Origin: an uncultured Lachnospiraceae bacterium
Lineage (GTDB): Bacteria; Bacillota; Clostridia; Lachnospirales; Lachnospiraceae
Direction: 5' to 3'
DNA: 64,000 nt
NCBI GenBank assembly: GCA_947173495.1
Contig: CAMWFQ010000017.1
Location: 19,018 to 83,017 of the forward strand
The position numbers and the translations under genes are program-made. Positions 31,997 through 40,310 of this stretch are shown here, piece after piece; the stretch's first letter is position 1, and every line of letters starts with the position of its first letter. Below the pieces are notes generated by a model. It searched no databases. It worked only from the letters and a program-made list of their open reading frames with translations, and had not been told where the DNA came from.

Positions 31997-32055
31997 TCAA
32001 GCCTTAATGAATATACCTATAAAATTAGTCATTCCTTTTAATTCAGTAGAAAGTA

Positions 32056-32084: not shown

Positions 32085-32162
32085 AAATATAGATTTACCT
32101 CTTCTCAAAAATACTATATATAGATTCTATATTGTTTTGGAATGAATCTGGAGGAACATAAG

Positions 32163-32609
32163 ATGTCGCCATTATTATCTCAAAAGAGAAGATTGGCAAT
32201 TCAAAAAAAGGTTGATGAACTTACTAAGAAATACAAAAACGCAACTCCTTTCGAGATTGCCGCTTTTCTTGGTATAGTCTGTAAATTTAAGAATTTACCG
32301 GAAGGCATAAATGCCTATTCCATATATGAAAAATCCATTATATACATCAGCGATCGATTTAAAGAGAACAGCTATTCTGCCAAAATAGTTTGTGCTCACG
32401 AATTAGGACATTTGCTTCTTCAGGCTCATTCCGGTACTTTTGAATATAATTTTACCCTATACCGGAATTCTGCTACGAAGGACGGGATGCTGGAGTATGA
32501 AGCCAATATTTTTGCGGCGCTGCTTATGCCGCAGATCACTCAGGGGAGAGATCCTTTCAGTTATCATCCCGAAAAACTATACCGATGTCTGAATGATAAA
32601 ATTTTTTAA
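32163..32609 (+). CDS. ImmA/IrrE (M78/DUF955) zinc metallopeptidase
   Basis: CAHELGH (HExxH) and EYEANIFAALLMP; RBS GGAGG before ATG 32163. Confidence 0.88.
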   Translation: MSPLLSQKRRLAIQKKVDELTKKYKNATPFEIAAFLGIVCKFKNLPEGINAYSIYEKSIIYISDRFKENSYSAKIVCAHELGHLLLQAHSGTFEYNFTLYRNSATKDGMLEYEANIFAALLMPQITQGRDPFSYHPEKLYRCLNDKIF

Positions 32610-32625: not shown

Positions 32626-35511
32626 TTACATCAATGCTCCCTCATACAGCATTTTCCTCACAGCACGGATTATTTTTTCTACTTCTTCTATAATCCGCCC
32701 CGCGTCTTTTTCCTTTTGAATGAAGCTTGCATTCATTCCGTTCTGGCGTATCTTATCTATCCACTCCAAAGTCTCTTCTTTCGCCATTCCCTTCGCCTCC
32801 GCCTCATAGTAAATATATGCCAGTTCATTTTCAACATTGGTATTGAACACAGCCGGGTCATCAGAATTAATCGTGAGCATGACATGGTAATCTGCCTTTT
32901 CATTTTGCTTCCCCAAGTAAAAGACCGGATGCTCCTTCATATTGCTGAATTCCCCGATGGTTATATTAGAGGTAGGATTTGCTTCTATGTAAATCCCTTT
33001 TCTTTGGATTTTGTGAATTAAATACTCCTGCAGATGCCGGTACAGAGCTATTTCATCTTTTGTGACAGCCACAAGTTTTATCTCTCTGTATCTTTCTTCA
33101 AAAACAGGACAGTAATGGGTTAACAGCAAAGTTTCTTCTGTCCATATGTTTTGACAATCTTTTCCGGCGTTATCCCAGCAACTGCATCTATACTCTTCAT
33201 CAGCTTTCCTCTGCGCAATCTCTCTGTGTGAGAGATCAAACTTCATCTTATATGTCTGATACAGCATCTGGATCGTTATTGTTTCCCAGCAGGGATACAG
33301 TTCATGTACGATGCCGATGATTCTGTCTTCTAATACGCCTGTTTTTACCGGCAGGTCCACATCGCCATGAATACATATTCCCCAAATCCACAGCAGATTT
33401 TCCATATGTTCCAGTACCGGAACAGCCACCACTTCATTATCTGCTGCCCATTGCTCTGCGCTGACCCCGAGCGCAAGCGCATGCCCCAGACGATCTCCTG
33501 CTTTATACCGGAATTCCTCCAGGACTTCGTCAATATGGCGCAGTCCGGAGACAATATGACGGAAGTCTTCCCCTACATGATAGGTAAATCCAATATTCTG
33601 TACTCTGCTGAATGATGTCCTTCCGTTGGTTACTTTTACAACCGGTCTGGTCACCTCCTGTGAACGTATCAGCTTATAAGCAGGTGCAAACATCCACGGC
33701 TCCATCACATTTTCATCGGAAGCGGCGTCTATCCCTACAATATATTCATCAATTCCGGGAATTGTCTGGCGTATTTCTTCTAATGCCACAGCCATATTCT
33801 GTATAAAGTACCGCCTGTGCATACGGCCTGAGACCCGTCTCTCACCGGAGAGTATTTCTTTCTTCCAGCAGTAGTCTCCCGATACATCCTCCAGGAACTC
33901 TCCCTTGATGAAATGAAAGACGATACCCAAAACAGGAATATTGGCGGATGAATTTCTTAATTCTTCCTGAATACTCTTTCGTTCTTCTGTTGAAATCCCC
34001 TTAAGCTTCTCCCTGTGTAACAGATTACGGGTTCTTCTGACTCCAATTGTATCCTCCATGATAAACCGTTTATAGGACTCAAATACCTTACAAATCTGCC
34101 CATATAACTGATATAAAATATACTTCCTACATTTATTATATTCAAAGAAACTCCATCCCACTTCGTCAATGTCAGGAGCAATTCTTATCTCCAGTTTTTT
34201 TAAGTATTCCATTCTTGCCTGGGAACGGAAGAGCTCCACCAACAGATCATTTCCTCCCAGAGCTGTTTTTTCCGCCCTTTTTGCCGCATTATATTGGGTC
34301 TGAAAATATTTTAATCCCTGCAAGGTATATTTTTCATGAATTTTGTAATAATATTCATTTTTCAGTCGAAGATACTGCAAAAACAGCCTGGCGAAGAAAG
34401 GATCGTCCATACAGCATTTCACATACTGATAGCTTTGGAACAACAGGATAAATTCTGAAGAGGTCTTATATTCCAGATATTCCTCATATACTGCACCGAG
34501 CAGATAATCCCTCTCCTCAGTCAAACCTTCCTTCAGTTTCCTGTATATTTTGTCAATCTTGTGAATACACCCTCTTTCTACCTCTCCTTCATATTCTCCG
34601 CAGTAGAGCCGCAGCATAATATCTCTTATTTCTCCCGGCACAACACGATCCAGCCATCTTCTGAACCCCGCTTTCTGCTCTTTTCCTTCAAAGTACAGTG
34701 CTGACAAACATCGAAACAAGGACATTTCAAGTCTGGTCAGATTATCTCTGCTCCAGTTCTTTTCTTCCATTTTGCTTATAAAACTCAGATCCGTATAGTA
34801 TAGCCATCCGGTTTCATAATCAAGCCCTACATTAAAATGCAGATGATTTTCCGCCACACCCCTTTGCATTACTTTTATAAGCAGTTTATCCATCAGCGCC
34901 AGATTGGGTCCCTGCTCATAAAGCGCCTCCATTCCCAGGTCATTTTCTACTGCAGCAGCAACAATATAGATATCCGGCACTGTGAAACGGCAAAGTAAAT
35001 TCCAGGTTTCCAATTTATCAAATACAGCGTCTCCATTCAGAATTTCTTCTACCTTATTTTTGCTTTTGCCCTTCCATTGCTTAATGGAGGCGACGCCGTC
35101 GCGGTATGTAATGAGAGCCTGAGAAACCCCGGATATAATCTTCAAAATGTAATAACTGCTGATGATTTCCAAATTAGAATGATTGATTCTGTTTTTACGC
35201 GTATATTCCATATACTTTTCCACCTCAGGCAGGGGGAAGAACAGGTTCCAAAGCATCTCGACTTCGTCTTCTGTTTTGATTCTCCAGTGATTTCGTTCTG
35301 TCAGATACGCGTTTAAAACTCTTTTTGCCCTTCTGAACTCTGCATTTTTGCGTCCCGCTTCTGAAGCCGATACTGACCTGTCATCACTCTTTATAAATCT
35401 ATGATATGCTCTATAACAGGAAAGAAAATAATCTGATTTTCCCTGTTCCGAATCAATTAATGGAAACAGGAGAACTTCCAATATCTGATTCAGTCTGTAT
35501 TTATTCATCAT
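32626..35511 (-). CDS. rdrB: Large adenosine deaminase-fold protein, RADAR RdrB-like
   Basis: About 960 aa; ENHLH (HxH), GIDAASDE, YHVGED, RLGHAL, EANPTSN, NSDDP; start overlaps the ATPase stop. Confidence 0.8.
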   Translation of the reverse strand: MMNKYRLNQILEVLLFPLIDSEQGKSDYFLSCYRAYHRFIKSDDRSVSASEAGRKNAEFRRAKRVLNAYLTERNHWRIKTEDEVEMLWNLFFPLPEVEKYMEYTRKNRINHSNLEIISSYYILKIISGVSQALITYRDGVASIKQWKGKSKNKVEEILNGDAVFDKLETWNLLCRFTVPDIYIVAAAVENDLGMEALYEQGPNLALMDKLLIKVMQRGVAENHLHFNVGLDYETGWLYYTDLSFISKMEEKNWSRDNLTRLEMSLFRCLSALYFEGKEQKAGFRRWLDRVVPGEIRDIMLRLYCGEYEGEVERGCIHKIDKIYRKLKEGLTEERDYLLGAVYEEYLEYKTSSEFILLFQSYQYVKCCMDDPFFARLFLQYLRLKNEYYYKIHEKYTLQGLKYFQTQYNAAKRAEKTALGGNDLLVELFRSQARMEYLKKLEIRIAPDIDEVGWSFFEYNKCRKYILYQLYGQICKVFESYKRFIMEDTIGVRRTRNLLHREKLKGISTEERKSIQEELRNSSANIPVLGIVFHFIKGEFLEDVSGDYCWKKEILSGERRVSGRMHRRYFIQNMAVALEEIRQTIPGIDEYIVGIDAASDENVMEPWMFAPAYKLIRSQEVTRPVVKVTNGRTSFSRVQNIGFTYHVGEDFRHIVSGLRHIDEVLEEFRYKAGDRLGHALALGVSAEQWAADNEVVAVPVLEHMENLLWIWGICIHGDVDLPVKTGVLEDRIIGIVHELYPCWETITIQMLYQTYKMKFDLSHREIAQRKADEEYRCSCWDNAGKDCQNIWTEETLLLTHYCPVFEERYREIKLVAVTKDEIALYRHLQEYLIHKIQRKGIYIEANPTSNITIGEFSNMKEHPVFYLGKQNEKADYHVMLTINSDDPAVFNTNVENELAYIYYEAEAKGMAKEETLEWIDKIRQNGMNASFIQKEKDAGRIIEEVEKIIRAVRKMLYEGALM

Positions 35512-38500
35512 CCTCTCCCTCAATTAACGAATTAATATAATTGATTCTCTCCATTTCGTAAGAGGATTTTATATCATCCTGAAGCATTGCCAGCTCATTA
35601 TCGGTGCCGGATAGCTTCTTTTCTTCCAAAATATCAACTGCAAGGTTAAAAAACTGATAATAATATGTCACTGTTTTCTTTCCGTTTATTTTTACTTTCT
35701 CCAGATCTTTCGATGATATGCTATTACCATTTTTATACCTGTCGCTTATAACCTGAAAAATATAAACCTTTTGCAGAAGTGTAATAAATCTAACCTGCAT
35801 TCCCAGTTTTACTGCTTTTCTTACTTCGTCACTATTTTGCAGATCAATCAGGATATCCATCGCGCCAATTACTTCTTCCACTCTGTTCTTCAACGTTACA
35901 TCTCTGTATACAGCACTATCTGCAGTCCCTCTTTGTCTGTAGATATTATTAAGATTTCTTACCAGCTCCATATACAGCCCTTTACTGATCGGTATCTCTC
36001 TCGTTGCTCCGGTAGATCTTAAATTACTGACCTGTATACGCAGTCTGTTAATCTGGGCATAATTCAATGGATAGTCGTCTGCTATTTCGTTTAGTACTTC
36101 TATTACATATTGAGGATCTCTAAGCAATGCATGATTTCCAAATGAATAAGCAGCCTGTTTTACTTTATTGATATATTCTCTGAGCAGCCCCGCTGTCTCT
36201 TCATAATTTTCATACATTCTTTCCTGTACATCCCTGATTATTTCACCAGGGCAGATTCCAAAAAATTCTTTCAATTTACCGAAATCCTGCAAATAGACCT
36301 GTGTTCTCTTGGCAACGATGTCTATGATCTGGCCCAGACCCAGATACCGCCCGGACGCAGTCCCCTGATTTCCATTGACCTTTGCTTTTTTACTGACGTT
36401 TGATTCATTTTTCCTGTCAAACGCTATTACAATTTCATTAAAAAAATTATAAAATTTATCGTCCGCCCCTCTTACATTTTTGCCGTCTATATCAATCCCT
36501 TTTTGATGATCCTCTTTTAATTTATCCCATTTATCCTGCATTTTCACCTCTGAAAAGCAGTCGCTTAGGTTATTTTTAATCTCATTGTCTATCCTTCTCT
36601 GATACTGTGTCAGGTATTCTCCAAACGGATAAACAATGCAGTCTTCCATATTCTGCCTGTTAAACAAATATACATTTCCATATACCAGAAACAATCTGCC
36701 CGCTATTTCACTAAACCATTTTGGATTCTTCCTGTAAATTGTAAGTAAATCGCTCCGAACCGGCGCTTTCCCATATGAATACTCCTTAAAATTATAAAAA
36801 TATTCCATATTGAACTGCGCATCGGAAGCCTTATCCGTAATAATCGTTCCCAGCCGATCCAGCAGATTGGAATAATGTCTGAAATACTCGTCAGCATGCA
36901 AATCATCTCTAAACACATAACGGTTTCCAAACGCTTCATCTCCAATATATTTTGTTAATGGCAATACCACATGAATCTTTTCCCTTCCCGTAACTCCCCT
37001 GTCAATCCCCTTTTCCATTATCAATAAAAGATTTTCCAGAAAAGCCATCAGGGAATAAAGCTGAAGCCCCGTCTCGATTTTCTTGTGCTTTCCCTTTTCC
37101 TTTTCATGCCCCCGGTTCTTTTTCAGAAATTCATTCAGGAATTCATAATGAAGATATAATTTCCATTGATTATATTCCAGTAAAAAAATATTATCCACAA
37201 ACTCATCAATATCTTCTATTGCCTGCGACAGATCATGATTGGCGCTAATGGTAATCCGTAAAAAATATCTGCAATGATAGTATATTTTCATCACCGGATC
37301 CTTCTTATCTGCAGTTGCTATTGCCTTCTTTAAACTATAAACCAATTCCTGCAGAGCAATGTAAACATTTCCGATCTGTCTGGAGGTATTTCCCATGAAT
37401 TTTAAATAGAAATTAATCAGTTCGGAATTCTCACCCATAAAATTATGCGGTTTCTCCCCAACCACACAGTCTATTAAGCTCTGCACCTCCTCTTTGACAC
37501 CACAGCCTAAATTTTTATTATCCTCCAGACAGAATGTCTCCTTCTGTCTGGCCGTATTAAACAGTCTCAGGTAATAACGTGTGGAGGTTGGAAGAACCTT
37601 CCCCAAATACATTCTGGCAGTACGGCTTACTACATCCTCCGCGCTCTTGTCCGGCTCATTATCTTCCTCCTCGTTTTCCCGTGGTATTCCCCAGATATAG
37701 CGGGGTTTATTATTTTTAACCAGATAATTTCTCCATTCACTTGGCAGTCTGCCGATATTTCTGTCAAGTGCATTTTCGATCACCTCCAGAAAGAGCTCTT
37801 CATCTGCTGTTGTAATCACAATGATATTGGGGTGAGATAAATACTTGATAATCACTGACAAAATCTCTTCTATTTTTTCCGGCGCCAGATCAACATCGTC
37901 AAATATAAAATAAATCATCGGACATATGGACTTCTTTTTTCCTTCCCGCAGTTCCTGATATCTCAGTATATTTTTTATCCATTCATCCCACAAATCTGCA
38001 ATTTCCTTTGCAAATTTGTAATAGTCTTCCGCCTGCAGAACGGAATTGTTAATCACTGTATAATAAGAAGATTCCACGCCGGGATTATAATTTCCTGCAT
38101 AAAAAAACTGCGTCATTCTTTCCAGCTTCCCATGCAATGACTCTTTCATATTTTCATCGGGCAGATACTTGCATTTGTTCCAGTATCCTTCCTCCCTGTC
38201 TTTTTGTTCTAACCTATGTATATGTTCCTCCAGGTTCCCTATTTCCTCCCTGATAATAGCCAGAATCCAGCCCAGAACCGTACAGTTCTCCGGTATCACT
38301 TCCGGAATAATCAACGGAAGAACCACATCATATTCATCCTTTTCATACATCTCCCTTATCTTTCTCTGTAATGAAAATGCCACCGACGTCTTTCCGGTTC
38401 CTCTGGGCCCTAAAATAGAAAAGACATTATCATACATAAAATTGTCCTGATAATATCTCTTCCTGCTTGACTTCATATTTTCCTGAAGCTCCTTATAGGC

Positions 38501-38617
38501 AACTTCCCGGCACACATTGATCTTGTGAAACAAATTTTCATACGTAGGCAATACATTTTCCAACTGAATGTCTGTTAACAGTCTGATTCCAACCTTGTGA
38601 TCATTTTTTCTTCCCAT
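35501..38617 (-). CDS. rdrA: Large P-loop ATPase, RADAR RdrA-like
   Basis: About 1040 aa; Walker A GPRGTGKT, Walker B FIFDDVD, KVLP motif; directly upstream of the deaminase (ORF-track start 38647). Confidence 0.78.
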   Translation of the reverse strand: MGRKNDHKVGIRLLTDIQLENVLPTYENLFHKINVCREVAYKELQENMKSSRKRYYQDNFMYDNVFSILGPRGTGKTSVAFSLQRKIREMYEKDEYDVVLPLIIPEVIPENCTVLGWILAIIREEIGNLEEHIHRLEQKDREEGYWNKCKYLPDENMKESLHGKLERMTQFFYAGNYNPGVESSYYTVINNSVLQAEDYYKFAKEIADLWDEWIKNILRYQELREGKKKSICPMIYFIFDDVDLAPEKIEEILSVIIKYLSHPNIIVITTADEELFLEVIENALDRNIGRLPSEWRNYLVKNNKPRYIWGIPRENEEEDNEPDKSAEDVVSRTARMYLGKVLPTSTRYYLRLFNTARQKETFCLEDNKNLGCGVKEEVQSLIDCVVGEKPHNFMGENSELINFYLKFMGNTSRQIGNVYIALQELVYSLKKAIATADKKDPVMKIYYHCRYFLRITISANHDLSQAIEDIDEFVDNIFLLEYNQWKLYLHYEFLNEFLKKNRGHEKEKGKHKKIETGLQLYSLMAFLENLLLIMEKGIDRGVTGREKIHVVLPLTKYIGDEAFGNRYVFRDDLHADEYFRHYSNLLDRLGTIITDKASDAQFNMEYFYNFKEYSYGKAPVRSDLLTIYRKNPKWFSEIAGRLFLVYGNVYLFNRQNMEDCIVYPFGEYLTQYQRRIDNEIKNNLSDCFSEVKMQDKWDKLKEDHQKGIDIDGKNVRGADDKFYNFFNEIVIAFDRKNESNVSKKAKVNGNQGTASGRYLGLGQIIDIVAKRTQVYLQDFGKLKEFFGICPGEIIRDVQERMYENYEETAGLLREYINKVKQAAYSFGNHALLRDPQYVIEVLNEIADDYPLNYAQINRLRIQVSNLRSTGATREIPISKGLYMELVRNLNNIYRQRGTADSAVYRDVTLKNRVEEVIGAMDILIDLQNSDEVRKAVKLGMQVRFITLLQKVYIFQVISDRYKNGNSISSKDLEKVKINGKKTVTYYYQFFNLAVDILEEKKLSGTDNELAMLQDDIKSSYEMERINYINSLIEGEDDE

Positions 38618-38653
38618 TTTTCTTCCGTACCCCTTTCCCCATAACACTATAGC

Positions 38654-38902
38654 CTATCTCTTATTCCCACGTCCCCGCCTTACCTGTATCGGCGGCGTTC
38701 CATATAAAAGCCACTCCCTTTCCTCCGACATAAATTTTGAATTCCGGCGCTCATACGCTTCCTTTTGACGCTTCAATTTCTCCCGGCGCTGATTTAATTC
38801 ATACTTGGTCGGAGCAGGCGCAAAATCCATCTCGATATAACGCCGCGTCTCCCTAGCGCTCAAATCTATATACTTTTCCTGCCTGCGGTTACTTTTATAC
38901 AT
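38654..38902 (-). CDS. Small basic hypothetical protein upstream of rdrA
   Basis: 82 aa, RBS AGAGGA, co-oriented with and just upstream of rdrA. Confidence 0.6.
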   Translation of the reverse strand: MYKSNRRQEKYIDLSARETRRYIEMDFAPAPTKYELNQRREKLKRQKEAYERRNSKFMSEEREWLLYGTPPIQVRRGRGNKR

Positions 38903-39201: not shown

Positions 39202-39251
39202 AGGCAAATATAAATCAAAAGGAAGTTGGTGCCTTAAACGAAGCGAAAGGA

Positions 39252-40310
39252 ATGACAAAATTTATGAACACCTCAAATCATAGAATGATTGGATTAGATC
39301 TATTCAGAGTCATAGCAGCTTTTACCGTATTTCTTTTTCATTCTTCCATCCATATGGGATGTACTTATGGAATCTTTCAGGATTTTGTAAGCATGGGAGC
39401 CGTGTTTATGACCGGTTTCTTTCTTCTTTCTGGTTTTGTAATATTTAAAACCTACAGTAAAAGAGAAATAACTAAAATATCTGAGATAAAAAATTTCTAT
39501 TTAAAAAGATTAATCACATTAATTCCAGTTTATTATGTAACTGCACTTTTATACACCTTAACTTTAGATTCAAAAAACATCGTCGATAATCTTTTCTTGG
39601 CTCCCATTGAATTATTGGGGATTCAGTCGACTTTCAGTTCATTATTCAGTTATTCGCACAATGGCGGTACGTGGTTCATTTCCTGTTTGATAATTTGCTA
39701 TCTGATTTATCCCTATATTCAGGAACTTGTCCTCCAAATCTCACTGAAAGGCAGATTTATCATTTTCGTTCTATGCTGCTTCATTTTGCTGTATGCACCT
39801 GTGATTGTTATTATATTCAAGACGGCAAATATTTATTCAAATCCTTTCTATCGATGTCTTGAGTTTATAATCGGGATCCTGTCGGCTTCTATCATTGAAA
39901 ATACCTCCGACAGCCGTCAGTATCATTTGCTGCGGACATGGAAATTCTTTTGGATAGAATTGATACTCTTCATCGCCGGTATTTCTCTCGCAGTAAAATT
40001 AAATTTATTTGTTAATGATTATATGCTTTATAACTGGATTAATCTTCCGCTTTCTATTCTGATGATCTGTACGCTGTCAGGTGTATCATCAGAAAAGATG
40101 CAGAATTCCCGGATCATCTCTTATCTCGGATCAATATCTTATTGTTTCTTTTTAGCTCAATTTTTTACATGGAAATTGACGGCTTTTATCCTCAGGATAA
40201 TAAATCAGGACAGCAACTTATTCAAAATAATCACATCTCTAATTATTTGTACTATACTATCAATACTACTTTATGAACTGGTTGAAAAGCCATTTAAGAA
40301 ATTATTGTAA
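39252..40310 (+). CDS. Acyltransferase family 3 O-acyltransferase
   Basis: GLDLFR..AA..VFLFH, FFLLSGF, GTWFISCL, LGSISYCFFL, YELVEKP. Confidence 0.88.
   Translation: MTKFMNTSNHRMIGLDLFRVIAAFTVFLFHSSIHMGCTYGIFQDFVSMGAVFMTGFFLLSGFVIFKTYSKREITKISEIKNFYLKRLITLIPVYYVTALLYTLTLDSKNIVDNLFLAPIELLGIQSTFSSLFSYSHNGGTWFISCLIICYLIYPYIQELVLQISLKGRFIIFVLCCFILLYAPVIVIIFKTANIYSNPFYRCLEFIIGILSASIIENTSDSRQYHLLRTWKFFWIELILFIAGISLAVKLNLFVNDYMLYNWINLPLSILMICTLSGVSSEKMQNSRIISYLGSISYCFFLAQFFTWKLTAFILRIINQDSNLFKIITSLIICTILSILLYELVEKPFKKLL

What the first reader, a model, noticed from the sequence alone, without database searches (positions are those of the whole stretch)
32626..38647. RADAR-like ATPase plus adenosine deaminase defence pair inside a glycan locus
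Seen: a roughly 1040-aa ATPase (GPRGTGKT / FIFDDVD) translationally coupled to a roughly 960-aa deaminase with all metal and catalytic motifs intact (HLH, HVGED, RLGH, SDDP). Established: this architecture matches RADAR (RdrA/RdrB), which deaminates adenosine substrates during phage infection and also occurs in Firmicutes. The core is therefore probably a known system. Both proteins are long and could form a divergent subtype, and no integrase or flanking repeat explains how the pair arrived.
Basis: partly seen in the sequence, partly recalled or inferred. Interest (0 to 1): 0.75.

Follow-up and report, generated by a model that had tools for sequence, protein, structure and literature searches.

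The report
Divergent RADAR anti-phage gene pair
These two large overlapping genes are an intact but sequence-divergent copy of RADAR, a known bacterial anti-phage system in which an ATPase controls an ATP-deaminating enzyme. It is a new member of a known kind, with a small conserved upstream gene as the only possibly new feature.

Summary
A 1038-aa P-loop ATPase (35501-38617, minus strand) overlaps by 8 nt a 960-aa adenosine deaminase (32626-35508). All reported motifs are present and invariant across both protein families.

The RADAR interpretation is supported.
- The deaminase model matches E. coli RdrB over its full length (Foldseek E 6.5e-25, TM 0.69).
- The ATPase model's top 20 PDB hits are all RdrA (E 1e-7 to 2e-4; next hit E 0.35).
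- Walker A, Walker B and sensor-1 residues align one-to-one with E. coli RdrA.
- About 12 of 30 family loci carry the known RADAR accessory Csx27-like membrane gene.
- The pair is 29-30% identical (E 3e-32 and 3e-102) to a Bacillus cereus pair whose 1178/907-aa sizes match a B. cereus RADAR entry in the published census.

Curated RdrA/RdrB models score far below cutoff (30/600 and 200/800 bits), and databases call these proteins hypothetical. The B. cereus pair scores equally low, so low scores are typical of this Firmicutes branch.

Additional features: a recombining, hypervariable ATPase C-terminal module; a conserved small ORF (82 aa) immediately upstream; patchy distribution (absent from all 24 same-genus genomes searched) inside a strain-variable surface-glycan locus, with no mobility genes. 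Verdict: new member of a known kind, of moderate-to-low interest.

The parts
38654..38902 (-). Small 82-aa charged ORF (pI ~10) directly upstream of the ATPase; candidate third gene of this clade, function unknown
   Evidence: It has a GAGGA RBS 4 nt upstream of its ATG. Gene callers also call it in four conspecific contigs. Its core motif (T-K-x-E-L...K-L-R-x-Q-K-x-x-Y-E-R-x-N-x-x-F-x-S-E-E-R) recurs immediately upstream of the ATPase in L006, L008, L011, L017, L058-L061 and L069. Differences show a third-codon-position excess. There is no Pfam or PADLOC match. A second, unrelated 74-aa family occupies the same position in the short sub-clade.
35501..38617 (-). rdrA-like AAA+ ATPase, 1038 aa (ORF open back to GTG 38647)
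   Evidence: AF2 model: pLDDT 75, pTM 0.65. The top 20 Foldseek PDB hits are all RdrA, E 1.3e-7 to 2e-4, ~600-650 aligned columns; the next hit is at E 0.35. phmmer against the PDB hits only E. coli RdrA (E 0.004, residues 73-299). It is 30% identical over residues 18-375 to the B. cereus plasmid gene A, E 3e-32. hhalign against RdrA-recognisable Lachnospiraceae ATPases gives 98.3% probability, E 2.5e-14.
38384..38410 (-). Walker A, GPRGTGKTS (G85/K86/T87 align to E. coli RdrA G81/K82/T83)
   Evidence: E. coli residue numbers from PMC9994260.
37889..37909 (-). Walker B, FIFDDVD (D250/D251 align to E. coli RdrA D221/D222)
37802..37804 (-). Candidate sensor-1 Asp D282 (aligns to E. coli RdrA D253)
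   Evidence: phmmer alignment. At least 90% conserved, next to invariant T280 and A281.
35609..36569 (-). Hypervariable, recombining C-terminal module of the ATPase (about residues 693-1013 in GTG numbering); putative phage-sensing lobe
   Evidence: Within the family, identity to the window's protein is 12-21% for residues ~700-950, against 35-84% elsewhere. Compared with a 98.9%-identical conspecific contig, 42 of the 48 differing ATPase codons (27 synonymous, 15 non-synonymous) lie in this segment and only 6 lie in the first 682 codons. Many homologues match only the first ~65% of the protein. The model is nevertheless confident here (pLDDT 80-94).
32626..35508 (-). rdrB-like adenosine deaminase, 960 aa
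   Evidence: AF2 model: pLDDT 84, pTM 0.85. Foldseek against E. coli RdrB 8fnv_A: E 6.5e-25, TM 0.69 (target-normalised), 916 columns; ordinary deaminases and Cad1 score only E ~1e-3. PADLOC RdrB E 1e-39. NCBIfam RdrB 200 bits. hhalign against annotated Aliivibrio RdrB gives 99.9% probability.
34837..34845 (-). HxH metal site (H227/H229; counterpart of E. coli RdrB H152/H154)
   Evidence: Invariant in the family; coordinates verified.
33565..33579 (-). HVGED: metal His H649 and catalytic Glu E652 (align to E. coli RdrB H498/E501)
33481..33492 (-). RLGH: H681 (aligns to E. coli RdrB H530)
32854..32865 (-). SDDP: metal-binding Asp D888
35501..35508 (-). 8-nt overlap (ATGAATAA) between the rdrA-like stop and the rdrB-like start
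   Evidence: Overlaps of 8-26 nt recur in the long sub-clade.

Best explanation
This is a standalone (rdrAB-type) RADAR anti-phage system of a Firmicutes long-RdrA branch. The inferred mechanism follows the E. coli, C. rodentium and S. suis systems. The RdrA-like AAA+ ATPase forms a ring and detects a phage cue, probably through its variable alpha-helical C-terminal module. It docks on the RdrB-like deaminase shell through the helical insertion between Walker A and Walker B. RdrB then converts ATP/dATP to ITP/dITP, which blocks phage replication at the cost of host growth. What is shown here: intact, conserved catalytic motifs; RdrA- and RdrB-specific predicted folds; overlapping genes; purifying selection; patchy distribution; defence-island neighbours in relatives; and association with the RADAR accessory Csx27-like gene. 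What is inferred: oligomeric state, substrate, trigger and phage protection. The 82-aa upstream gene is probably co-expressed, and its role (regulator, brake or adaptor) is unknown.
For: Folds: the top 20 PDB hits of the ATPase model are all RdrA, and the deaminase matches RdrB over its full length with TM 0.69.
Residues: K86, D250/D251 and D282 align to RdrA K82, D221/D222 and D253. H649, E652 and H681 align to RdrB H498, E501 and H530. All are invariant or nearly so.
Sequence chain: P0001 matches the B. cereus gene A at E 3e-32. P0002 matches the B. cereus gene B at E 3e-102 over 93% of its length. The B. cereus sizes, 1178/907 aa, equal a B. cereus RADAR entry in Table S1 of PMC9994260. A1 vs A3 gives 98.3% probability, and the A3 members hit PADLOC RdrA at E 1e-9 to 1e-15. 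A2 vs annotated Aliivibrio RdrB gives 99.9%.
Tree: the window's deaminase shares a 100/99-supported branch with the B. cereus deaminase.
Accessory gene: a Csx27-like membrane protein (PADLOC E 2.5e-8 to 4.5e-9) adjoins the pair in ~12 of ~30 family loci. Csx27-associated RADAR is a described subtype (PMC7699616).
Context in relatives: TIR, patatin, SIR2, HD and transposase genes.
Distribution: absent from all 40 related genomes searched; RdrB-like genes occur in 13 of 401 genera of the host family.
Selection: against the conspecific contig, the deaminase has 13 synonymous vs 4 non-synonymous differing codons and the ATPase core has 5 vs 1.
Against: Curated models are not met: NCBIfam RdrA 29.7 bits (cutoff 600), RdrB 200 bits (cutoff 800), and PADLOC RdrA only 20 bits. 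A profile of the ATPase family did not retrieve RdrA from the PDB at E<=1. Global TM-scores of the ATPase model to RdrA are low (~0.2), and part of that model is low-confidence (residues 286-360). The window's locus has no other defence gene nearby and sits among glycan genes. Equating the B. cereus plasmid pair with the census entry rests on species and identical lengths only.
Confidence: 0.87

Rival explanations
1. A three-gene variant of RADAR. In this reading the small upstream protein (82 aa here) is an obligatory component specific to this Lachnospiraceae clade, for example a stoichiometric brake or antitoxin-like inhibitor of the ATPase ring, or an adaptor that couples it to a trigger. 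The system would then work differently from two-gene RADAR at the sensing or regulation step.
For: A small ORF with a strong RBS lies directly upstream of the ATPase in most loci of the family. Two sequence families of it persist across deep divergence with coding-type substitution patterns. It is absent from the more distant Lachnospiraceae pairs and from the B. cereus locus. Independent gene callers also call it.
Against: Several close family members have no recognisable small ORF in that position (L009, L013, L015) or have a different gene there: a TIR gene in L001 and an unrelated gene in L007. The small ORFs fall into unrelated sequence families (hhalign probability 0.2%). They match no known domain. 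No structure prediction or interaction test was possible. The ORF could instead be a leader or regulatory ORF, or a dispensable gene.
Confidence: 0.25
2. A nucleotide-signal generator rather than a direct ATP-poisoning effector. In this reading the pair makes (d)ITP as a messenger for a separate effector, as in Kongming, where KomBC (HAM1 plus SIR2) responds to dITP. RADAR-like modules have been seen next to KomBC.
For: The Kongming preprint reports RADAR-like systems associated with KomBC (10.1101/2024.12.20.629578). In L003/L004 a SIR2_2 protein lies two genes downstream of the deaminase.
Against: The window and its conspecific contigs have no SIR2 or HAM1 gene near the pair. Most family loci lack one. 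The SIR2 neighbour in L003 scores as LmuA/ThsA-like and may belong to another system.
Confidence: 0.05
3. An RNA-editing defence. The deaminase would edit adenosines in RNA, as in the original RADAR proposal, rather than deaminating free nucleotides.
For: This was the original interpretation by Gao et al. 2020, as summarised in PMC7699616.
Against: Work on E. coli and C. rodentium RADAR found ATP/dATP deamination and no RNA editing in vitro (PMC9994260). The active-site fold here is closest to RdrB and to mononucleotide deaminases. Nothing in this sequence favours RNA as a substrate.
Confidence: 0.04
4. A housekeeping or glycan-locus-linked enzyme pair. In this reading a regulated purine-salvage deaminase is functionally tied to the surrounding surface-polysaccharide genes and has no defence role.
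For: The pair is embedded among glycan-modifying genes. The neighbouring M78, MBOAT and acyltransferase genes are retained in conspecific strains.
Against: It is absent from all 24 same-genus genomes searched. Relatives sit in quite different, defence-rich contexts. The giant RdrB-type architecture with three insertions is not that of metabolic deaminases. The flanking glycan genes are themselves variable.
Confidence: 0.03

Closest known systems
RADAR of Escherichia coli P0304799.3 and Citrobacter rodentium (RdrA/RdrB; PDB 8fnt, 8fnv, 8fnw, 8hr7-8hrc; Duncan-Lowey et al. 2023, PMC9994260)
   Same: Tandem ATPase-then-deaminase genes. RdrA-specific and RdrB-specific folds. Walker A, Walker B and sensor-1 residues and the H/H/H/E/D deaminase residues aligned one-to-one. 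A helical insertion between Walker A and Walker B, and a second insertion after sensor 1. A large N-terminal extension and two further insertions around the deaminase core. A variable alpha-helical ATPase C-terminus.
   Different: Only 12-13% (ATPase) and 16-17% (deaminase) structure-based identity. Both proteins are ~100-160 aa longer. The genes overlap. A small upstream ORF is present. The curated HMM cutoffs are missed by a wide margin.
Bacillus cereus long-RdrA RADAR type (plasmid NZ_CP125990.1, 1178 + 907 aa; same sizes as B. cereus CTMA-B01 in Table S1 of PMC9994260)
   Same: Closest named relative. The ATPase is 30% identical over residues 18-375 and the deaminase 29% over 93% of its length. 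Both fall in the same strongly supported deaminase branch. Both have similarly low PADLOC scores and are annotated 'hypothetical protein'.
   Different: The ATPase C-terminal two-thirds are unrelated in sequence. The B. cereus locus has no small charged upstream ORF, and its genes do not overlap (11-nt gap). Its defence activity has, to my knowledge, not been tested.
Streptococcus suis SS993 RADAR (RdrA structure 8fnu)
   Same: An experimentally validated Firmicutes RADAR. The ATPase model matches 8fnu_A (E 2e-4).
   Different: It is no closer to the window's ATPase than the E. coli RdrA, and phmmer does not detect it.
Csx27-associated RADAR (rdrABC subtype of Gao et al. 2020)
   Same: About 12 of 30 loci of the window's family carry a Csx27-like membrane gene next to the pair.
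   Different: The window's own locus lacks it. A conspecific strain has an unrelated 201-aa membrane protein nearby instead.
Cad1 (CARF-adenosine deaminase, type III CRISPR) and Kongming KomA
   Same: Defence deaminases that produce ITP or dITP-pathway products. There are weak fold and HMM similarities in the C-terminal deaminase core.
   Different: No CARF domain and no KomBC partner. The architecture and partner ATPase are those of RADAR.

Membership tests
RADAR (RdrA/RdrB) | Two adjacent, co-oriented genes, ATPase first and adenosine deaminase second | tested here: met
   The genes overlap by 8 nt in the window. The same order is seen in every related locus examined.
RADAR (RdrA/RdrB) | RdrA: AAA+ core with Walker A (GKT), Walker B (DD) and sensor-1 Asp | tested here: met
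   G85/K86/T87, D250/D251 and D282 align to E. coli G81/K82/T83, D221/D222 and D253. They are invariant or at least 90% conserved.
RADAR (RdrA/RdrB) | RdrA: sensor-2 arginine (E. coli R377) | tested here: inconclusive
   An invariant R357 in the conserved YLGKVLPTSTRYYL motif aligns to conserved arginines in the Lachnospiraceae RdrA-like clade and to Aliivibrio RdrA. Its equivalence to R377 was not established.
RADAR (RdrA/RdrB) | RdrA-specific fold: helical 'crown' insertion between beta2 and beta3, insertion after sensor 1, and an alpha-helical C-terminal lobe | tested here: met
   The top 20 Foldseek PDB hits are all RdrA over ~600-650 columns, and nothing else scores below E 0.3. The model has helices 124-235 between Walker A and Walker B and helices 283-347 after sensor 1. 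Global TM is low (~0.2), so domain arrangement is not confirmed.
RADAR (RdrA/RdrB) | RdrB: adenosine-deaminase catalytic set (HxH, H, E, H, D) | tested here: met
   H227, H229, H649, E652, H681 and D888 are invariant. H649, E652 and H681 align to E. coli H498, E501 and H530.
RADAR (RdrA/RdrB) | RdrB-specific architecture: N-terminal extension plus two large insertions around the deaminase core | tested here: met
   Full-length Foldseek match to 8fnv/8hr7 RdrB chains: TM 0.62-0.71 (target-normalised), 916-990 columns, E down to 6.5e-25. Ordinary deaminases score only E ~1e-3.
RADAR (RdrA/RdrB) | Scores above curated family thresholds (NCBIfam NF041743 and NF041744 equivalogs) | tested here: not met
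   RdrA 29.7 bits against a 600-bit cutoff; RdrB 200 bits against 800. None of 401 genomes of the host family reaches the RdrB cutoff. The B. cereus pair that matches the census entry by size also scores low in PADLOC. These equivalog models therefore cover only part of RADAR diversity.
RADAR (RdrA/RdrB) | RdrA heptamer, RdrB dodecamer and their supramolecular complex | not testable with these tools
   Only monomer models were made.
RADAR (RdrA/RdrB) | Phage protection requiring both active sites; ATP/dATP to ITP/dITP conversion on infection | not testable with these tools
   Requires experiments.
Csx27-associated RADAR (rdrABC) | Csx27-family membrane protein gene adjacent to rdrAB | tested here: not met
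   It is absent from the window. It is present in ~12 of 30 related loci.
Kongming (KomABC) | Adenosine deaminase with HAM1-like and SIR2-like partners | tested here: not met
   No HAM1 or SIR2 gene lies near the pair.

The most novel reading that the evidence does not exclude
The small charged protein encoded immediately upstream of the ATPase (82 aa here) is a required third component of this Lachnospiraceae RADAR clade. It would be a brake or adaptor acting on the RdrA-like ring, evolving and being replaced as fast as the ring's recombining C-terminal sensor module. That would make this a three-component RADAR variant with a regulatory logic not described for RADAR.
Probability: 0.2. Interest if true: 0.55.

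Novelty: new member of a known kind. Interest (0 to 1): 0.35.

Why it matters
RADAR is rare: it was reported in fewer than 1% of genomes. How RdrA senses phage is still unknown. This clade is common enough in gut Lachnospiraceae and related Clostridia to matter for phage-bacterium dynamics in the gut: about 3% of genera in the host family carry an RdrB-like gene, and the ATPase family has 249 representative clusters at E<=1e-30. Yet databases annotate these proteins as hypothetical. The NCBIfam models miss the pair outright, and PADLOC's RdrA model matches it only marginally (whether PADLOC or DefenseFinder would call the system was not run). Adding profiles for this branch would improve defence-system censuses.

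The natural swapping of the ATPase C-terminal module between near-identical strains gives a ready-made set of variants for mapping what RdrA senses. The conserved small upstream gene is a cheap, testable candidate regulator.

Tried and rejected
1. Profile of the ATPase family against PDB sequences. It gave only compositional hits to designed helical repeats and no RdrA, so the fold search and intermediate sequences were needed.
2. Search for an empty site. The ATPase and both flanking glycan genes are absent from the same-genus genomes searched, so insertion borders cannot be defined from species representatives.
3. Flanking repeats. Only short, chance-level pairs were found. The 20-nt inverted pair at 32019-32038 / 39246-39265 coincides with RBS/ATG contexts and was not taken as an element end.
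4. Promoter and terminator scan. The number of sites was no higher than in shuffled sequence. No clear operon promoter or terminator was found.
5. ImmA/IrrE-like M78 peptidase (32142-32609; PADLOC capP E 2e-11) as a CapP-type regulator of the system. No HTH partner is present, and no M78 gene lies near any other family locus. Rejected as a component.
6. Homology between the two small-ORF families: none.
7. Phage records: no homologue of the deaminase.
9. Whether the published census already holds this exact clade. Lachnospiraceae bacterium A4 and 3-1 are listed, but with shorter genes (937/903 aa). Eubacterium sp. 14-2, which carries this family (L021), is not in the held text of Table S1. This is suggestive only.
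Full report
OBSERVATION. The ATPase frame is open from GTG 38647. The likely start is ATG 38617 (MGRKNDHK..., 1038 aa), preceded by a purine-rich RBS. The deaminase frame is open from TTG 35523, and the likely start is ATG 35508 (MNKYRL..., 960 aa). Independent gene callers on conspecific metagenome contigs chose the same two starts. With these starts the genes overlap by 8 nt (ATGAATAA), with GAGGGAGAGG just upstream. All quoted motifs were verified at their coordinates. They are invariant in alignments of 31 ATPase and 29 deaminase homologues.

WHAT THE PROTEINS ARE: THE DEAMINASE. Sequence evidence alone is already clear.
- PADLOC RdrB scores E 1e-39, and NCBIfam RdrB scores 200 bits.
- phmmer against the PDB gives E 1.6e-25 to E. 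coli RdrB over residues 574-930, with the FTYHVGEDF, GDRLGH and SDDP blocks aligned.
- The AlphaFold model (pLDDT 84, pTM 0.85) matches E. coli RdrB over its full length: 916-990 columns, TM 0.62-0.71 normalised to RdrB, E down to 6.5e-25.
- Ordinary adenosine/adenine deaminases and Cad1 reach only E ~1e-3.
The protein therefore has the RdrB architecture described in PMC9994260, not merely a deaminase core. That architecture is an N-terminal extension, an insertion that splits the catalytic core (H229 to H649 here), and an insertion after the last catalytic His.

WHAT THE PROTEINS ARE: THE ATPASE. Here the sequence signal is marginal.
- There is no Pfam hit. NCBIfam RdrA gives 29.7 bits against a 600-bit cutoff, and PADLOC RdrA gives 20 bits.
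- phmmer against the PDB gives E 0.004, although its only hits are E. coli RdrA chains.
- A family profile did not recover RdrA at all.
The fold search decided the question. The model (pLDDT 75, pTM 0.65) has RdrA chains from E. coli and S. suis as its top 20 PDB hits (E 1.3e-7 to 2e-4, ~600-650 columns, 11-13% identity), and nothing else scores below E 0.35. In the phmmer alignment, G85/K86/T87, D250/D251 and D282 fall on the RdrA Walker A, Walker B and sensor-1 residues named in PMC9994260. An LPxIxPxxxP stretch after beta2 is also shared. The model has a helical bundle between Walker A and Walker B (residues ~124-235) and helices after sensor 1 (283-347). These are the positions of RdrA's 'crown' and second insertion.

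SEQUENCE BRIDGES TO RADAR. Lachnospiraceae hold a graded series of ATPase-deaminase pairs.
- A clade with GERGEGKS Walker A motifs hits PADLOC RdrA at E 1e-9 to 1e-15 across the ATPase domain. It aligns to the window's family at 98.3% probability (E 2.5e-14, 289 columns).
- A Bacillus cereus megaplasmid pair of 1178 + 907 aa has exactly the sizes listed for a B. cereus RADAR in the published census (Table S1 of PMC9994260). It is 30% identical to the window's ATPase over residues 18-375 (E 3e-32) and 29% identical to the deaminase over 93% of its length (E 3e-102).
- Against PGAP-annotated Aliivibrio RdrA and RdrB, the family profiles give 82% and 99.9% probability.
- In a deaminase tree, the window's clade, a shorter sub-clade, intermediate Lachnospiraceae pairs and the B. 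cereus protein form one branch (100/99 support). The GERGEGKS-partnered clade groups with Aliivibrio RdrB.
- The B. cereus pair scores as poorly in PADLOC (40 and 121 bits) as the window's pair, whereas Aliivibrio scores 775 and 965 bits. None of 401 genomes of the host family passes the NCBIfam RdrB cutoff.
Low profile scores therefore characterise the whole Firmicutes branch. This fits the report that validated RADAR systems share only 22-28% identity in limited regions.

CONTEXT AND DISTRIBUTION.
- The ATPase has 173 and the deaminase 589 cluster-level relatives in the word-indexed search. All are unnamed or 'hypothetical', and they come mostly from Lachnospiraceae and gut metagenomes.
- A full scan finds 708, 532 and 249 representative ATPase clusters at E<=1e-3, 1e-10 and 1e-30.
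- The pair is absent from all 24 same-genus and 16 same-order genomes searched.
- In relatives it sits beside TIR, patatin, SIR2, HD-domain and transposase genes, which is typical defence-island company.
- A ~226-aa membrane protein that matches PADLOC Csx27 nearly full length (E 2.5e-8 to 4.5e-9) adjoins the pair in about 12 of 30 non-redundant family loci. Csx27-associated RADAR is one of the three subtypes described by Gao et al. 2020 (PMC7699616). The window's locus lacks this gene, so it is of the standalone rdrAB type.
- In the window the pair lies in a surface-glycan region: PMT_2, three MBOAT, Acyl_transf_3, YfhO, DegT and Asn synthase. The flanking genes tested there are themselves absent from 30 congeners. 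Beyond window position 40306 the region differs even between conspecific strains.
- No integrase, transposase, tRNA-type border or convincing repeat was found. The pair seems simply to sit in a hypervariable region.

ADDITIONAL FEATURES.
(1) The ATPase C-terminal module. Within the family, residues ~700-950 are only 12-21% identical to the window's protein, against 35-84% elsewhere. Many homologues match only the first ~65% of the protein. Compared with a conspecific contig that is 98.9% identical over 7.2 kb, 42 of the 48 differing ATPase codons lie in codons 683-1003 (ATG numbering): 27 synonymous and 15 non-synonymous. Only 6 lie in the first 682 codons, and the deaminase has 13 synonymous and 4 non-synonymous differences. 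Because synonymous divergence is also elevated, the pattern indicates recombinational import of a diverged module rather than point-wise positive selection. PMC9994260 proposes the RdrA C-terminal lobe as the phage sensor. Earlier notes of this scan report similar tail swapping in other RADAR-like pairs.
(2) A small upstream gene. An 82-aa charged ORF (38654-38902) with a good RBS ends 36 nt before the ATPase start. Its conserved core recurs in the same position in at least eight other non-redundant loci. An unrelated 74-aa family occupies the same position in the shorter sub-clade. Both families show a third-codon-position and synonymous excess. No such ORF precedes the more distant Lachnospiraceae pairs or the B. 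cereus pair. Some close relatives also lack it or have another gene there. It has no known domain. I treat it as a probable co-expressed gene of unknown role, not as an established component.

MECHANISM. The best-supported reading (confidence ~0.87) is a RADAR-type abortive-infection system. An RdrA-like ring senses infection and activates an RdrB-like shell, which deaminates ATP/dATP to ITP/dITP. Only the sequence, fold and context features are shown here. Oligomeric state, substrate, trigger and protection are inferred from the E. coli, C. rodentium and S. suis systems. The rival readings are set out in the Rival explanations section.

NOVELTY AND SCORE. This is a new member of a known kind. 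The system type, its presence in Firmicutes including Lachnospiraceae, its extreme sequence divergence, its Csx27 association and the variable RdrA tail are all documented or anticipated. Three things are new: this abundant gut clade is unannotated and falls below the curated model thresholds; strain-level module exchange in the ATPase tail is documented here; and a clade-specific small upstream gene is present. Interest 0.35.

LIMITS. DefenseFinder was not available.

Noticed in passing
window 32142-32609 (+): A 155-aa ImmA/IrrE-type M78 peptidase lies convergent with the deaminase. It hits PADLOC capP (E 2e-11) and RmrA models. It has no adjacent HTH partner. Conspecific strains retain it, but no other locus of the family has one nearby.
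   Followed up: partly
window 31998/32003 junction; L119:16616-17336: A conspecific contig carries an extra 721 nt here, encoding a 201-aa multi-TM protein with no family match (weak 8xMP hit, E 0.004). The window lacks this segment. A second indel of 112 nt lies at window 39224/39225.
   Followed up: partly
window 40306 onward vs L119:1-8200: The glycan genes beyond the Acyl_transf_3 gene differ completely between the window (706-aa protein, Asn synthase and others) and the conspecific contig (GtrA, 680-aa protein, epimerase, GT2, two DegT, acetyltransferase). This indicates strain-level replacement of a surface-polysaccharide module right next to the defence pair.
   Followed up: partly
L016, L017, L019, L062, L064 (small ORFs upstream of the ATPase): Several otherwise dissimilar small upstream ORFs end in a shared C-terminal motif, (E/K)-x-I-S-R-N/S/E-W/L-G. 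This hints at a conserved C-terminal contact peptide.
   Followed up: no
L003:14438-16834 and L004: Downstream of one family member lie a 358-aa membrane protein and a SIR2_2 protein (PADLOC LmuA/ThsA-like, weak). This may be a separate system or an effector coupled to the deaminase, as proposed for RADAR-like modules near KomBC.
   Followed up: no
L001:6986-7942: In one family member a 318-aa TIR-domain protein occupies the position directly upstream of the ATPase, where other loci have the small ORF.
   Followed up: no
L092-L099, L114 (distant relatives, 25-28% identity in the ATPase core): A conserved 37-codon ORF lies ~85-110 nt upstream of the ATPase in a distant metagenomic clade. These loci are close relatives of one another, so the conservation may be trivial.
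   Followed up: no
window 32019-32038 and 39246-39265: A 20-nt, 90%-complementary inverted pair brackets the M78-deaminase-ATPase-small ORF block, near the two strain indel junctions. Both arms look like RBS-plus-ATG contexts, so this is probably coincidental.
   Followed up: partly
L014:6900-7170: The ATPase N-terminus in 'Bacterium D16-36' appears split. A 60-aa ORF carries the conserved HKVGIKIL start, followed by the main ORF in another frame. This suggests a frameshift or a sequencing error.
   Followed up: no
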